Notes: a model not told the origin generated them from the letters alone. A stretch of DNA of 64,000 nt from an uncultured Serinicoccus sp. (GCF_947487915.1 NZ_CANKYH010000011.1:9919-73918), one strand, 5' to 3'; positions 7,745 to 11,113 are shown, counted from the stretch's first letter. Program-made: numbers and translations.

Positions 7745-8023
7745 GTGCTCCGCGTCGTCGTCGCCGTAGCGCTCCTGGCGTTCGTCGTCTTCACCGTCGT
7801 CGACGCCGTGCAGACCGACAAGCACGAGGTGCGCGGTCTGCCCAAGCCGGTGTGGGTCGTCGTGTGCGTGATCCTCCCGGGCCTCGGCGGCCTGGCCTGG
7901 CTCGTCGCCGGGCGCCCCCGCAGCCTGCTCGACATCATCTTCGGGGACCGGGGCGGACGCTCCGGGCGCCCCCGCGGCCCGCTCGGGCCGGACGACGACC
8001 CCGACTTCCTGCGAGACCTGTAG
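7745..8023 (+). CDS. PLDc_N-type small membrane protein
   Basis: VRGLPKPVWVVVCVILPGLGGLAWL and C-terminal GPDDDPDFL; usual menE-menA neighbour. Confidence 0.85.
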   Translation: MLRVVVAVALLAFVVFTVVDAVQTDKHEVRGLPKPVWVVVCVILPGLGGLAWLVAGRPRSLLDIIFGDRGGRSGRPRGPLGPDDDPDFLRDL

Positions 8024-8033
8024 GAGCCCGCCG

Positions 8034-8909
8034 ATGGCCACCCTCGCCCAGTGGATCGAGGGCGCGCGACCGCGCACCCTCCCCGCCGCGCTCGCCCCCG
8101 TGCTCGTCGGCACCGCCGCCGCAGATGCCCTCGGCGCCGCGGACCTCGGTCTCGCGGTGCTGGCGCTGTGCGTCGCGCTCGGCTTCCAGATCGGCGTCAA
8201 CTACGCCAACGACTACTCAGACGGGATCCGCGGCACCGACGAGGACCGGGTCGGACCGGTCCGGCTGGTCGGGCAGCGGCTGGCCGACCCCGCCAACGTC
8301 CGGACCGCCGCGTTCGCCGCGTTCTTCGGCGCGGGCCTGTGCGGCCTGACGCTCGTGGCGCTGTCCGGGGCGTGGCTGCTCATCGTCCTCGGCGCGCTGG
8401 CCGTGTGGGCGGCCTGGCACTACACCGGGGGCGCCAAGCCCTACGGCTACCGCGGGCTCGGCGAGGTCATGGTCTTCGTCTTCTTCGGGCTCGTCGCCGT
8501 GCTCGGCACCACCTGGACCCAGGCGCAGGCCCTCGACCTCGCGGCCCTCGGCGGCGCGGTCGGCTGCGGCCTGCTGGCCAGCGCCATCCTCGTCACCAAC
8601 AACCTGCGCGACCTCGAGGGCGACCGGGCCGCGGGCAAGCGCACCCTCGCCGTCCGCATCGGCTTCCGGCGCACCCGCCGGCTCTACGCCGGGCTCCTCG
8701 TCGGCGCCTTCGCCGCGGTCCTGGTCGCTGCGCTGGCCCACCCCCTGGCGCTGCTCGGCCTGCTCGCCGCCCCGCTGGCCTGGCGCCCCTACCGCCTCGT
8801 CACCGACCCCGACGCCTACGGCCCGGCGCTGCTGCCCGCGCTGGCGCAGACCGGCGTCCTGCAGCTGGGGTATGCCGTCGCCCTCTCGGTCGGCCTCGTC
8901 CTGTCCTGA
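8034..8909 (+). CDS. menA: 1,4-dihydroxy-2-naphthoate polyprenyltransferase
   Basis: GARPRTL, NYANDYSDGIRGTD, NNLRDLEGD UbiA-family motifs. Confidence 0.96.
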   Translation: MATLAQWIEGARPRTLPAALAPVLVGTAAADALGAADLGLAVLALCVALGFQIGVNYANDYSDGIRGTDEDRVGPVRLVGQRLADPANVRTAAFAAFFGAGLCGLTLVALSGAWLLIVLGALAVWAAWHYTGGAKPYGYRGLGEVMVFVFFGLVAVLGTTWTQAQALDLAALGGAVGCGLLASAILVTNNLRDLEGDRAAGKRTLAVRIGFRRTRRLYAGLLVGAFAAVLVAALAHPLALLGLLAAPLAWRPYRLVTDPDAYGPALLPALAQTGVLQLGYAVALSVGLVLS

Positions 8910-8940
8910 GGCGCCCGCGGTCCGCGGCCGCAGCCCCGCC

Positions 8941-9851
8941 TGGAGGGCCCTGCGTGTGCGGTCATGGCCCCTGGAGGGCCACCACCGCGCACAGACCCAG
9001 CTTGGCCGGCGAGTGGCCAGCCTCGCATGGTGCCGTGCCACCCGTACAGCGACCTGCGTGTGCGGTCATGGCCCTCAGAGGGCCACCCCCGCGCACGGCC
9101 AGCCCACCGACCGCCTGACTAGCCTCGCCAAGCCCCTCCGTGTGCGGTCGTGGCCCCTGGAGGGCCACCACCGCACACAGCCAGCCACCCGACCGCTAAG
9201 GGTCCCCGGCGGGGCCTCTGGCCTTCGCGGGCCCCACGTGTGCGGTCGTGGCCCCCTGAGGGCCACCACCGCGCACAGCCCCAGCCTGGCCGGCGAGTGG
9301 CCAGTCTCGCATTGTGCCGTGCCACCCCTAGAGCGACCTGCGTGTGCGGTCATGGCCCCTGGAGGGCCACCACCGCGCACGGCCAGCCCACCGACCGCCT
9401 GACCAGCCTCCTCGCGCCTCCATGTGCAGTCGTGGCCCCTGGAGGGCCACCACCGCGCACAGCCAGCCACCCGACCGCCTGACCAGCCTCGCCAAGCCCC
9501 TTCGTGTGCGGTCATGGCCCTCAGAGGGCCACCACCGCGCACAGCCAACCCAGCGACCGCCTGACCAGCCTCGCCAAGCCCCTTCGTGTGCAGTCATGGC
9601 CGCTGGGGGGCCACCACCGCGCACGGCCAGCCCACCCGACCGCCTGACCAGCCTCGCCAAGCCCCTTCGTGTGCGGTCATGGCCGCTGGGGGGCCACCAC
9701 CGCGCACAAGCCAGCCCACCCGACCGCTAGGGTCCCCGGCGGGGTCCTTCCTGTGCCGCAGGGCCTTCGCAAGCCCCTTCGTGTGCGGTCATGGCCCTCA
9801 GAGGGCCACCACCGCGCACGGCCAGCCCACCCGACCGCCTGACCAGCCTCG
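8941..9851. repeat. Intergenic modular array of ten 40-bp hairpin units (REP/BIME-like)
   Basis: Core CGTGTGCGGTC(A/G)TGGCCC-N5-GGGCCACCACCGCGCAC at 8953, 9057, 9139, 9237, 9341, 9421, 9503, 9585, 9668, 9780; linkers of 40-72 bp fall into three recurring classes. Confidence 0.95.
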
Positions 9852-9869
9852 CTCTCCCTGCCCCCGGGC

Positions 9870-10118
9870 TCAGTCCTCCTCGTCGACCCGCTCGTCCTCG
9901 AGCTGGGCCCGACGGCGCTCCATGCGGTCCTCGACGCGCCGTTCGAGGCCGGCCGCGAGCCGCTCGCGGTCCGGCGCGAGGAGGAAGTAAGAGACGACCA
10001 TGGAAGCCACCGCCGCCAGCACGGCCGCCCACAGCACGTTCAGGGTGAGCAGCCGCCCCAGGGCGAAGAAGCCGATGAAGACGAGCAGCCGCATGGCGGT
10101 GTAGCGGGCGACGATCAA
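9870..10118 (-). CDS. DUF4229 family small membrane protein
   Basis: RYTAMRLLVF...SYFLLAPDRERLA; TTG start overlapping ccsB stop (TTGA). Confidence 0.8.
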   Translation of the reverse strand: MIVARYTAMRLLVFIGFFALGRLLTLNVLWAAVLAAVASMVVSYFLLAPDRERLAAGLERRVEDRMERRRAQLEDERVDEED

Positions 10119-11113
10119 TTCGCGACCCCCGAGTAGGAGTGCAGCCCGGTCATGAGCAGGTTGACCACGGTGTAGTTGACGACGATGCAGGCGAACCCGG
10201 CGATGGCGACCCAGGTCGCCCGACGCGTGGTCCACCCGGACGTCGCGCGGGCGTGCAGGTAGGCGGCATACACCACCCAGATGACGAAGCTCCAGGTCTC
10301 CTTGGGGTCCCAGCCCCAGTAGCGGCCCCAGGCCTGCTCGGCCCACACGGCGCCCGACATCACCGCGAAGGTCCACAGCGGGAAGGCCACGATGTGCACG
10401 CCGTAGGTGATCCGCTCGAGCTTCACCGCCTCCGGCAGCGCGGCCAGCCAGCCCCGCACCTCCCCCTTGCGCTGGGCGCTGTCGCGGAGCAGGTAGGCCG
10501 TCGCGACCGCCGCGCCCAGCAGGAACAGCGCGATGGAGAGGGTGGCGACGGTGACGTGGATGACCAGCCAGATGTTGTCCAGGGCCGGCATGAGCTGGGA
10601 GGCCTCGGTGTACCACCACAGCTTGGCGGCCCCGAGGATGAGCAGCACCGGCACCACGACGAAGGCACCCAGCCACAGCCGGTCCCTGCGCAGGCTCCAC
10701 GCGGAGTAGACCACCAGCGCGAAGGAGGCCGTGAACAGCGCGAACTCGTACATGTTGCCCAACGGGGCGCGGGTCACCGACAGCCCGCGCAGCACCGTCC
10801 CGGCCACGACGAGGAAGGTCGCCAGCCAGGTGAGCTGCAGGCCGACCACGCCCCAGCGGCGGGTGGGCGCGGGAGCGTCGGCTGCCGACGCGAGGACCGG
10901 GCCCGGCCCGGGACCGACGGAGGTCGGCGGCGCCGCGCCCCCGGCCCCGGCCGCCACCGGGACCTCCTCCCGCGCCGTGCGGTCGGCGCGACGGGTGCGC
11001 CTCGAACCGGTGACCGCGAGGTGCACCGAGAAGGCGACCATGGCCAGGGCCAGCACCACGATGGCGGCCCAGATCGCGAGGTCGCTGGCCTGGGCCAGGG
11101 AAGCGTTCGTCAT
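10115..11113 (-). CDS. ccsB: Cytochrome c biogenesis protein CcsB/ResC
   Basis: PLGNMYEF, WLVIHV, WGRYWGWDPKETW (WWD domain). Confidence 0.96.
   Translation of the reverse strand: MTNASLAQASDLAIWAAIVVLALAMVAFSVHLAVTGSRRTRRADRTAREEVPVAAGAGGAAPPTSVGPGPGPVLASAADAPAPTRRWGVVGLQLTWLATFLVVAGTVLRGLSVTRAPLGNMYEFALFTASFALVVYSAWSLRRDRLWLGAFVVVPVLLILGAAKLWWYTEASQLMPALDNIWLVIHVTVATLSIALFLLGAAVATAYLLRDSAQRKGEVRGWLAALPEAVKLERITYGVHIVAFPLWTFAVMSGAVWAEQAWGRYWGWDPKETWSFVIWVVYAAYLHARATSGWTTRRATWVAIAGFACIVVNYTVVNLLMTGLHSYSGVAN

What the first reader, a model, noticed from the sequence alone, without database searches (positions are those of the whole stretch)
8941..9851. 0.9-kb modular array of ten 40-bp hairpins between convergent menA and DUF4229
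Seen: ten same-orientation cores GTGTGCGGT-cat-GGCCC-N5-GGGCC-acc-ACCGCGCAC with conserved arms and a variable loop (CTGGA, TCAGA, CCTGA, CTGGG). Linkers fall into classes: A (64 bp, twice), B (40-43 bp, five times plus a terminal partial copy) and C (58/72 bp, twice), in the order A-B-C-A-B-B-B-C-B. This suggests block duplication followed by single-unit expansion. It looks like CRISPR in dimensions, but the spacers are not unique and no cas gene is present. Established: enterobacterial BIMEs are mosaics of REP hairpins and recurring linkers that affect mRNA stability and termination. Inference: an actinobacterial BIME-like element, possibly the gene-less footprint of a nuclease-repeat cassette of the kind at 41-42 kb (the sequences differ), or a processed structured RNA.
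Basis: partly seen in the sequence, partly recalled or inferred. Interest (0 to 1): 0.68.

Follow-up and report, generated by a model that had tools for sequence, protein, structure and literature searches.

The report
Hairpin repeat array tied to nuclease gene
The ten-hairpin array is a locally amplified cluster of a Serinicoccus-specific REP-like palindrome (about 42 copies at 16 intergenic sites), and the same hairpin brackets a nearby DNA-binding nuclease gene that seems to have brought it into the genome, which suggests a REP-like repeat system that does not use the usual RAYT transposase.

Summary
Ten same-strand 39-nt hairpin cores lie at window 8954-9819, between convergent menA (UbiA family) and a DUF4229 gene. 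The array was built by a 284-bp block duplication followed by expansion of an 82-bp unit.

The core is not unique to this locus. It is a near-perfect 17-bp palindrome with about 42 copies at 16 intergenic loci in this genome. It is found only in one Serinicoccus subclade. Linkers are locus-specific, so the hairpin dispersed alone and the clusters grew locally. Copy number at the menA site is 10, 8, 7, at least 4, and 2 in five species. Hairpin-free relatives have only a 27-124 bp spacer there.

It is not CRISPR (no Cas1, repeated spacers), not a canonical REP/BIME (no RAYT, no GTAG/CGTC tag, all copies in direct orientation), and shows no RNA covariation.

The same hairpin flanks both ends of a gene ("pA") for a wHTH(AbiEi)-DUF559-like nuclease 11.6 kb upstream. 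This hairpin-gene-hairpin block is a 1.66-kb insertion compared with two relatives, and the empty site has no hairpin. Distant homologues carry their own co-diverged hairpins. In two other genomes those hairpins also occur as gene-less copies, and only in the genome that holds the matching gene.

That the nuclease mobilises the hairpins is inferred, not shown. No transcript data could be obtained.

The parts
8034..8909 (+). menA-like UbiA-family prenyltransferase gene. Its stop codon is 44 nt before the first hairpin core.
   Evidence: ORF. PF01040, E 1.1e-28. Orthologue found in 40 of 41 genomes of the genus.
8941..9851 (+). Whole array: ten 39-nt hairpin cores plus linkers. Non-coding.
   Evidence: No codon periodicity (GC by codon position 0.73-0.75, against GC3 of 0.93-0.97 in the flanking genes). 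No unit length is a multiple of 3.
8954..8992 (+). Hairpin core 1 (loop CTGGA), followed by linker A (65 nt).
   Evidence: Folds at -27.7 kcal/mol, z -4.6.
9058..9096 (+). Hairpin core 2 (loop TCAGA), followed by linker B (43 nt).
9140..9178 (+). Hairpin core 3 (T4-A36 variant, -31.6 kcal/mol), followed by linker C (59 nt).
9238..9276 (+). Hairpin core 4, followed by linker A' (65 nt).
9342..9380 (+). Hairpin core 5, followed by linker B (41 nt).
9422..9460 (+). Hairpin core 6 (3 mismatches to the consensus), followed by linker B (43 nt).
9504..9542 (+). Hairpin core 7, followed by linker B (43 nt).
9586..9624 (+). Hairpin core 8 (GGCCG...GGGCC apical variant), followed by linker B (44 nt).
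9669..9707 (+). Hairpin core 9, followed by linker C' (73 nt).
9781..9819 (+). Hairpin core 10, followed by a partial linker B.
8945..9410 (+). 284-bp block (core-A-core-B-core-C) present twice. The 182-nt segments 8945-9126 and 9229-9410 are 91% identical.
   Evidence: the repeat finder family D3. TRF period 284 x2.0.
9337..9727 (+). Run of 82-bp units (core + linker B), 4.8 copies. This expansion is specific to this lineage.
   Evidence: TRF period 82. G022 and S. chungangensis instead expanded a 62-63-bp unit at the same site.
9870..10094 (-). DUF4229 gene, convergent with menA.
   Evidence: PF14012, E 3.2e-10. The menA/DUF4229 pairing is conserved across the genus.

Best explanation
The array is a locally amplified, VNTR-like cluster of a lineage-specific, REP-like palindromic element. 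The element is a 39-nt near-perfect inverted repeat with 17-bp arms, a 5-nt spacer and two recurrent asymmetries (T.G at positions 4/36 and C.C at 10/30). This genome holds about 42 copies at 16 intergenic sites, mostly next to gene 3' ends.

Shown: only the hairpin is shared between loci. Each cluster repeats its own linker, so the hairpin dispersed alone and clusters then grew by tandem duplication of core + local linker. Here that was a 284-bp block duplication followed by expansion of an 82-bp unit. The menA-DUF4229 spacer was short (27-124 bp) in the ancestor. The hairpin entered it once, in the ancestor of one Serinicoccus subclade, and then expanded independently in each lineage (2 to 10 copies).

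Also shown: the same hairpin flanks both ends of a gene ('pA') 11.6 kb upstream, outside the window at G000:C11:6246-7253. pA has an AbiEi-type winged-helix N-terminal domain and a DUF559/Vsr-like PD-(D/E)XK C-terminal domain. The hairpin-gene-hairpin block is a 1.66-kb insertion relative to two close relatives, and their empty site holds no hairpin. Homologues elsewhere carry their own hairpins, which diverge as the protein diverges. In two other genomes those hairpins also have gene-less copies, only in the genome that holds the matching gene.

Inferred: the family entered the genome with the pA cassette. The pA protein binds the palindrome and, by nicking or cleaving at it, seeded copies elsewhere and promotes break-induced unequal recombination that changes copy number. 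This would resemble a REP/RAYT partnership but use a different enzyme. A secondary effect at this site is that the strong hairpins, which fold on both strands, probably act as factor-independent barriers or 3'-end stabilisers for the two convergent transcripts. This is also inferred.
For: Array and chance expectation.
Genome census: (42 copies, 16 loci).
Locus-specific linkers.
Intergenic, 3'-end-proximal or convergent context.
Taxonomic restriction: the degenerate core occurs only in Serinicoccus among about 185,000 species genomes. CM hit counts (each near-palindromic copy usually scores on both strands) were G000 82, G022 65, G049 41, and at most 7 or zero in the other 38 genomes of the genus.
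Orthologous sites with variable copy number.
Ancestral short spacer.
pA bracketed by hairpins in G000, G022 and G049.
Hairpin CM score falls with protein identity: 61-68 bits at 100%, 31-34 at 62%, 23-24 at 61%, none at 56% or below. The homologues below that limit show distinct flanking hairpins in the direct palindrome scan, on both sides in L055 and L057.
Empty site without a hairpin in G017 and G020.
Independent replicates: G048's hairpin type is at 2 flanking + 3 other loci only in G048. G002's type is at 2 flanking + 3 other loci only in G002.
pA domains: AbiEi_4 in 6 of 10 and DUF559 in 3 of 10 homologues. The E-x-D-G...H...D-R-x-R-D-R motif is invariant. AF2 pLDDT is 83. Foldseek matches AbiEi 6y8q at E 8e-7 and the DUF559-type 3hrl at probability 0.95.
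pA is under purifying selection: dN/dS 0.14-0.36.
[quoted passage not shown] DUF559 is grouped with Vsr and a homing endonuclease (PMC3424549).
Against: No activity of pA on the hairpin has been shown.
All hairpin loci of G022 and G049 map to G000 hairpin loci. No insertion newer than the clade's ancestor was seen, only copy-number change.
The co-occurrence of pA and the hairpin family within the G000/G022/G049 clade is confounded by shared descent.
G012 keeps one hairpin at an orthologous site without a close pA.
Other AbiEi/DUF559 paralogues in G000 show little or no dispersal of their flanking hairpins.
The C-terminal nuclease assignment for pA itself is weak. Pfam DUF559 is not significant for pA alone, and the Foldseek E-value is 0.09.
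No terminator-type T tract follows any hairpin, and no transcript data were available.
Confidence: 0.68

Rival explanations
1. The hairpins are host-selected terminator or insulator elements: bidirectional, U-tract-less 'I-shaped' terminators or mRNA 3'-end stabilisers. They spread and are kept because they are useful. The pA cassette merely sits between two such terminators, with no enzymatic link.
For: Most loci are intergenic and next to gene 3' ends, and many lie between convergent genes. Both strands fold strongly (-27.7 and -29.7 kcal/mol). Sites have been kept at orthologous positions across five species. G012 retains one copy without pA. Hairpin-free relatives often have a small, unrelated hairpin in the same spacer.
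Against: One hairpin would suffice, and ten add no obvious benefit. This view does not explain why each distant pA homologue has its own co-diverged hairpin on both sides. It does not explain why those types occur elsewhere only in the genome that carries that gene. It does not explain why the family appears together with the cassette insertion. No compensatory covariation was found.
Confidence: 0.17
2. The hairpins are operator or decoy binding sites for the pA winged-helix domain. AbiEi-type proteins autoregulate through inverted repeats. The dispersed copies and arrays would then titrate or position the protein, and no nuclease-driven mobility is involved.
For: The N-terminal domain matches the AbiEi antitoxin fold. 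Hairpins fill the whole 230-bp spacer directly upstream of the pA start. The site is a 17-bp-arm palindrome suited to a dimer. That AbiEi binds inverted repeats in its own promoter is from my own knowledge and was not checked here.
Against: This does not explain how the sites came to be at 16 loci, or why they lie at 3' ends rather than promoters. A downstream copy is also conserved in homologues. The invariant nuclease-type motif is under purifying selection.
Confidence: 0.08
3. The array encodes a structured or processed small RNA, or is an orphan CRISPR-like array.
For: Its dimensions resemble CRISPR: 39-nt repeats with 41-73-nt spacers. The hairpins are thermodynamically strong.
Against: Spacers recur within the array. 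The genome has no Cas1, while control genomes were positive. The repeat is dispersed as single copies at other loci. Covariation is no better than in shuffles: 87% of cells are paired, and 471 of 500 shuffles reach that value. Both strands fold equally well. There is no Rfam match.
Confidence: 0.04
4. The array is a simple locus-specific VNTR or an assembly artefact.
For: Copy number varies between species at this site.
Against: The core occurs at 15 other loci and in at least five genomes. Units are 76-93% identical, not identical. The single-contig genome G022 has 8 copies at the same site.
Confidence: 0.02

Closest known systems
REP elements with their RAYT (REPtron / REPIN-RAYT systems of Proteobacteria)
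   Same: A short (about 40 nt) imperfect palindrome that is extragenic and biased to 3' ends. It occurs as singletons and as clusters reiterated in tandem with flanking DNA (PMC3733652). One gene is flanked by copies of the same palindrome. Gene and repeat co-diverge, and inheritance within a lineage is mostly vertical.
   Different: The genome has no Y1/RAYT gene. The partner gene encodes a wHTH(AbiEi)-DUF559-like PD-(D/E)XK protein instead. There is no GTAG or CGTC tag. Flanking and clustered copies are in direct, not inverted, orientation. Copy number is low (about 42, against hundreds). The host is actinobacterial.
BIMEs of enterobacteria
   Same: Mosaic clusters of hairpins and recurring linkers in intergenic DNA between genes.
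   Different: BIMEs alternate REP orientation and share linker motifs between loci (PMC2817692 abstract). Here all copies are direct, and linkers recur only within a locus.
MIRU-type VNTRs of mycobacteria (from my own knowledge)
   Same: Intergenic tandem units of 40-100 bp in an actinobacterium, dispersed at several loci, with copy number varying between lineages.
   Different: MIRUs are not strong palindromes and are often in frame with the flanking ORFs. Here unit lengths are never a multiple of 3, and the conserved part is a 17-bp-arm hairpin.
The AbiEi-HTH/DUF559 gene bracketed by palindromes at 41-42 kb of this window (earlier finding e1-5226377)
   Same: The same gene architecture and the same hairpin-gene-hairpin layout.
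   Different: The palindrome sequence is unrelated. That cassette's hairpin is not dispersed (1 copy each), whereas pA's hairpin family has 42 copies, including this array.
Free-standing homing endonuclease genes with a Vsr/DUF559-type catalytic domain (I-Bth0305I)
   Same: The PD-(D/E)XK catalytic domain belongs to the same clade (PMC3424549), with a weak Foldseek match to 3r3p. The gene is selfish and dispensable, and absent from close relatives.
   Different: No intron or intein context, and no evidence of homing into a defined target. The empty site lacks the hairpin.

Membership tests
REP (RAYT-associated repetitive extragenic palindrome) | Imperfect palindrome of 20-40 nt located outside genes | tested here: met
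   39-nt core with 16 of 17 arm positions pairable. 87% of cells are paired across 42 copies. All loci are intergenic.
REP (RAYT-associated repetitive extragenic palindrome) | A RAYT (Y1 transposase, PF01797) gene in the genome, flanked by the REPs | tested here: not met
   No PF01797 match in the 100%-complete genome. Controls were positive in 6 of 14 genomes.
REP (RAYT-associated repetitive extragenic palindrome) | Conserved GTAG or CGTC tetranucleotide tag at one end | tested here: not met
   Copies start with GTG(T/C)GC and end with GC(G/A)CAC (alignment A1). The tags are defined in PMC3733652.
REP (RAYT-associated repetitive extragenic palindrome) | High copy number (typically over 100 per genome) | tested here: not met
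   About 42 copies in G000, about 35 in G022 and about 22 in G049.
BIME | Regularly spaced REPs in alternating orientation | tested here: not met
   All ten cores are on the + strand. Other clusters are also unidirectional.
BIME | Linker motifs shared among loci | tested here: not met
   Linkers recur within a locus but differ between loci. They share only C-richness.
CRISPR array | Unique spacers between identical repeats | tested here: not met
   Linker classes A, B and C recur within the array.
CRISPR array | cas genes (Cas1) in the genome | tested here: not met
   No PF01867 match. Controls were positive in 7 of 14 genomes.
Structured non-coding RNA family | Compensatory base changes that support a strand-specific fold | tested here: not met
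   The covariation score is 0.066, against a shuffled mean of 0.076. Only 2 pairs have double changes. Both strands fold equally well. There is no Rfam hit.
Structured non-coding RNA family | Transcription and processing | not testable with these tools
VNTR / minisatellite | Tandem units whose copy number differs between lineages at an orthologous site | tested here: met
   10, 8, 7, at least 4, and 2 copies at the menA-DUF4229 site in five genomes. Other loci also vary.
Hairpin-gene-hairpin wHTH/DUF559 cassette (provisional class from earlier finding e1-5226377) | AbiEi-type wHTH + DUF559-like gene bracketed on both sides by the same hairpin | tested here: met
   pA is bracketed in G000, G022 and G049. 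Homologues are bracketed on both sides in G046, G048, G002 and G003. G017 and G053 showed only one flanking hairpin, and G020 none, in the palindrome scan. Domains.
Hairpin-gene-hairpin wHTH/DUF559 cassette (provisional class from earlier finding e1-5226377) | The protein acts on (binds or cuts) its hairpin | not testable with these tools
   This needs biochemistry.

The most novel reading that the evidence does not exclude
The wHTH(AbiEi)-DUF559-like protein pA is the trans-acting enzyme that seeds and amplifies its own palindrome. This would be a RAYT-independent REP-type system in Actinobacteria, in which a PD-(D/E)XK nuclease gene and its hairpins form a co-evolving, vertically persisting partnership. 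Arrays such as the one between menA and DUF4229 would be its amplified satellites.
Probability: 0.35. Interest if true: 0.85.

Novelty: new variant of a known kind. Interest (0 to 1): 0.6.

Why it matters
REP-type repeats are common in Proteobacteria, where their spread is attributed to RAYT transposases. High-GC Gram-positive bacteria have no comparable, mechanistically anchored repeat system. In this case a REP-like hairpin family appears together with a gene of a very common but uncharacterised actinobacterial class. That class is annotated only as 'AbiEi antitoxin domain' or 'DUF559'.

If the link is enzymatic, three things follow. A large orphan gene family gets a function. There is a second, independent route to palindromic repeat families. 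A known class of false CRISPR-like arrays in actinobacterial genomes is explained.

In practical terms, the arrays are VNTR markers for typing Serinicoccus and a source of assembly breaks.

Tried and rejected
(1) Link to the 41-42 kb DUF559 cassette. Its palindromes (GGCATACC...CCGTGCCGCCCGTCCGACGGCACG) share no sequence with this core.
(2) Rfam scan of window 8000-11000 at E<=1. Only a chance miRNA-family hit outside the array.
(3) Covariation. None above shuffles.
(4) RAYT search and Cas1 search. Both absent from the genome.
(6) Precise insertion boundaries or target-site duplication for a single-copy hairpin (C4:111687). Only G020 holds the flanking gene, and its downstream neighbour differs, so there is no clean empty site.
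(7) Presence/absence polymorphism among G000, G022 and G049. Every hairpin locus is shared, so no recent insertion could be captured.
(8) Large indels beside hairpins in S. sediminis and S. chungangensis. These are ordinary gene-content differences (a MerR-like gene and two small ORFs), not cassettes.
(9) Other AbiEi/DUF559 paralogues of G000. My gene boundaries were crude. Some share a hairpin on both sides (for example C12:81k, 7 copies at 6 loci), but most hairpins are single-copy. Dispersal is therefore not a general property of the gene class.
(10) Profile search of pA homologues against PDB sequences. No hit, so a fold search was needed.
(11) Consensus terminator scan. No hairpin is followed by a T tract.
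(12) Earlier-findings look-up by sequence. Nothing found.

Full report
OBSERVATION. The region 8941-9851 holds ten cores matching GTGTGCGGTCATGGCCC-N5-GGGCCACCACCGCGCAC with at most 3 mismatches. All are on the + strand, at 8954, 9058, 9140, 9238, 9342, 9422, 9504, 9586, 9669 and 9781, and none is expected in shuffled sequence.

TRF and the repeat finder show a 284-bp block present twice (182 nt at 91% identity) and an 82-bp unit present 4.8 times. The flanking genes are a UbiA-family MenA-like gene (+) and a DUF4229 gene (-), and they are convergent. The array has no codon periodicity, and no unit length is a multiple of three, so the long ORFs across it are GC artefacts.

THE ELEMENT. Read closely, the core is a near-perfect palindrome with 17-bp arms and a 5-nt spacer. 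It has two recurrent asymmetries, T.G at positions 4/36 and C.C at 10/30. The A/G variation at position 11 decides whether 11/29 pairs. Both strands fold about equally well (-27.7 and -29.7 kcal/mol; z about -4.6 to -5).

Across 42 copies, 87% of pair cells are standard pairs, but covariation does not exceed shuffles. Rfam has nothing, and no T tract follows any hairpin. This profile fits a conserved DNA palindrome or a bidirectional hairpin, not a strand-specific structured RNA.

NOT UNIQUE TO THE LOCUS. A pattern search and an nhmmer census of the whole assembly (3.70 Mb, 65 contigs; the window is C11:9919-73918) find 42 copies at 16 loci. Eight loci hold single copies. Eight hold clusters of 2-10 tandem copies: C2 (2), C5:792 (4), C5:282.7k (3), C6:204.5k (2), C9 (5, period 73), C11:5.9k (4), C11:7.3k (3), this array (10) and C13 (3).

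All loci are intergenic. By a crude GC3-based gene call, most abut a gene's 3' end, and at least six lie between convergent genes.

Only the hairpin, plus a few flanking bases (cc-GTG...CAC-ag), is shared between loci. Each cluster repeats its own linker. The hairpin therefore dispersed on its own, and clusters grew by tandem duplication of core plus local DNA. Di Nocera et al. describe this pattern for REP clusters (PMC3733652).

An unexplained regularity is that all 26 linkers in 7 clusters are C-rich on the hairpin's reference strand (C/(C+G) 0.54-0.77, overall 0.67), while flanks of single copies are barely biased. The caveat is that orientation calls partly use the flanks.

TAXONOMIC SPREAD AND HISTORY. 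An exact scan of about 185,000 species genomes with a degenerate core hits only Serinicoccus: S. chungangensis, S. sediminis and an uncultured Serinicoccus. A covariance model (R1) was run over 41 genomes of the GTDB genus, which merges Serinicoccus and Ornithinimicrobium. It gives many matches only in G000, G022 and G049 (= S. sediminis). A few matches occur in G048, G012, G054 and G046, and none elsewhere.

Hairpin loci of the other hairpin-bearing genomes map onto G000's hairpin loci, with different copy numbers. No insertion newer than the clade's ancestor was found.

At the menA-DUF4229 site the counts are 10 (G000), 8 (G022, 62-63-bp units), 7 (S. chungangensis, 62-63-bp units), at least 4 (2B2-67, where the locus is cut) and 2 (S. 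sediminis). Linker A is shared by G000 and G022, and the 82-bp B expansion is specific to G000's lineage.

In hairpin-free relatives the same two genes are separated by only 27-124 bp, often with one small unrelated hairpin. So the hairpin entered this spacer once and expanded independently in each lineage. Because five assemblies show arrays here, one of them a single-contig genome, and because units are 76-93% identical to each other, an assembly artefact is unlikely.

THE PARTNER GENE. Two of the clusters (C11:5883-6212 and C11:7268-7485) bracket one gene, pA (C11:6246-7253, minus strand, 336 aa). It lies 11.6 kb upstream of the array and just outside the window.

pA and nine homologues share an AbiEi_4 winged-helix N-terminus (6 of 10 members) and a DUF559-type C-terminus (3 of 10 members), with an invariant E-x-D-G...H...D-R-x-R-D-R motif. 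An AlphaFold model (pLDDT 83) matches AbiEi antitoxin 6y8q (E 8e-7) and Rv2827c in its first two-thirds. In its last domain it matches the DUF559-type endonuclease-like protein 3hrl (probability 0.95, E 0.09) and, weakly, the I-Bth0305I homing-endonuclease domain.

DUF559 is classed with Vsr and that homing endonuclease in the PD-(D/E)XK survey (PMC3424549). Databases call these proteins 'hypothetical', 'AbiEi antitoxin domain' or 'DUF559'. pA is under purifying selection (dN/dS 0.14-0.36), but it is about ten times more relaxed than the adjacent permease (0.01-0.05) at similar dS.

EVIDENCE THAT GENE AND HAIRPIN BELONG TOGETHER.
(i) The genomes rich in this hairpin are exactly those with a close pA orthologue: 96% identity in G022, 85% in S. 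sediminis, and 84-85% in S. chungangensis and 2B2-67. In G000, G022 and S. sediminis, where the flanks were examined, the gene is bracketed by the hairpins. This alone is confounded by shared descent.
(ii) More distant homologues at other genomic positions are each flanked, usually on both sides and in direct orientation, by their own 40-50-nt hairpin. The hairpin diverges with the protein. CM scores are 61-68 bits at 100% identity, 31-34 at 62%, 23-24 at 61% and undetectable at 56% or below, where the flanking hairpins have a clearly different sequence.
(iii) In the two next-closest relatives (G017, G020), the permease and the MarR/MFS genes that flank pA are adjacent. The whole 1.66-kb block [3 hairpins - pA - 4 hairpins] is missing, and the 13-32-bp empty site has no hairpin. 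The cassette therefore arrived with its hairpins, on the same branch on which the family appears genome-wide.
(iv) Two independent replicates exist. The hairpin type flanking G048's homologue occurs at three further loci in G048 and nowhere in G046, G000 or G017. G002's type occurs at three further loci in G002 and nowhere in G003, G000 or G017.

CAVEATS. No enzymatic activity is shown. No recent transposition event was captured. G012 keeps one hairpin at a site orthologous to G000's C7 copy but has no close pA. Most other AbiEi/DUF559 paralogues of G000 do not have dispersed hairpins.

WHAT IT IS NOT.
- CRISPR: spacers recur, and there is no Cas1.
- Canonical REP/BIME: no RAYT, no GTAG/CGTC tag, copies in direct rather than alternating orientation, and linkers not shared between loci.
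- A locus-specific VNTR: the core is at 15 other loci.
- A coding repeat.

MECHANISM (best estimate). Shown: a palindromic element dispersed to about 16 intergenic sites in one ancestor. Clusters grew by tandem duplication. Copy number now drifts between lineages. The element is physically and evolutionarily tied to a wHTH/DUF559-like gene cassette.

Inferred: the protein's winged-helix domains recognise the two arms, and the PD-(D/E)XK domain nicks or cleaves at or near the (possibly extruded) hairpin. Repair of such breaks seeds copies and drives unequal recombination within clusters. At this site the hairpins probably also stop or stabilise the two convergent transcripts.

I put 0.68 on the overall reading (a REP-like satellite cluster of the pA cassette's hairpin) and about 0.35 on the specific claim that pA is the mobilising enzyme.

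NOVELTY. No paper in the searched library links DUF559 or AbiEi-domain genes to flanking or dispersed palindromes. This report adds a paralogue whose hairpin has proliferated, a clean empty site, a co-divergence series and two cross-genome replicates. I class it as a new variant of a known kind: a REP-like repeat system with a different partner enzyme.

Noticed in passing
G000:C11:5883-7485 (about 2.4-4.0 kb before the window start): A 336-aa gene with an AbiEi-type wHTH and a DUF559-like domain, bracketed by 4 + 3 copies of the same hairpin as the array. Hairpins fill the whole 230-bp spacer between the upstream permease stop and the gene's start codon.
   Followed up: yes
All hairpin clusters of G000 (e.g. 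window 8993-9780; C9:260175-260506; C13:75623-75855): Every one of the 26 linkers is C-rich on the hairpin's reference strand (overall C/(C+G) 0.67), although linker sequences differ between loci. Flanks of single copies are nearly unbiased. This is unexplained. The possibilities are a rut-like constraint, a longer mobile unit, or a bias in the orientation calls.
   Followed up: partly
L066 (G021:C1:534800-537000), menA-DUF4229 spacer: In a hairpin-free relative the same spacer is about 450 bp. It is filled with a different short repeat (ccgaacgcgcgc...ggtcgcc) in both orientations. This intergenic site seems to attract repeats in more than one lineage.
   Followed up: no
L022 (G012:C1:2961086-2961124), orthologous to G000 C7:208391-208429: G012 holds a single copy of the hairpin at an orthologous site but has no close pA orthologue (best 31% identity). 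It may be a relic or an exapted copy.
   Followed up: partly
L028:2740-3310 (uncultured Serinicoccus 2B2-67), orthologous to G000 C6:204480-204587: The two-copy cluster of G000 has 6-7 copies in 2B2-67. Two of them are directly preceded by GGTATGCC, the heptamer motif flagged elsewhere in this window. In G000 only 3 of 42 copies have a similar (A/C)TGCC 5' flank.
   Followed up: no
G000:C12:80960-82115: Another DUF559-type paralogue (C12:81767-81916 hit) has ...GCGTTC-acgt-GAACGC... hairpins on both sides. That hairpin occurs 7 times at 6 loci in the genome, so it is a second, smaller gene-plus-satellite family.
   Followed up: partly
L029 (2B2-67) against G000 C11:93097-99023 and C5:130-2369: Synteny shows that the end of contig C11 joins the start of contig C5 in G000. 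The assembly break lies beside the C5:792-1082 hairpin cluster, and a 668-bp S. sediminis contig also ends in a hairpin. These repeats probably fragment short-read assemblies.
   Followed up: no
window 8872-9990, both strands: Several ORFs of 110-176 aa run across the array. They are artefacts of high GC content: there is no GC3 signal, and the repeat units shift frame.
   Followed up: yes
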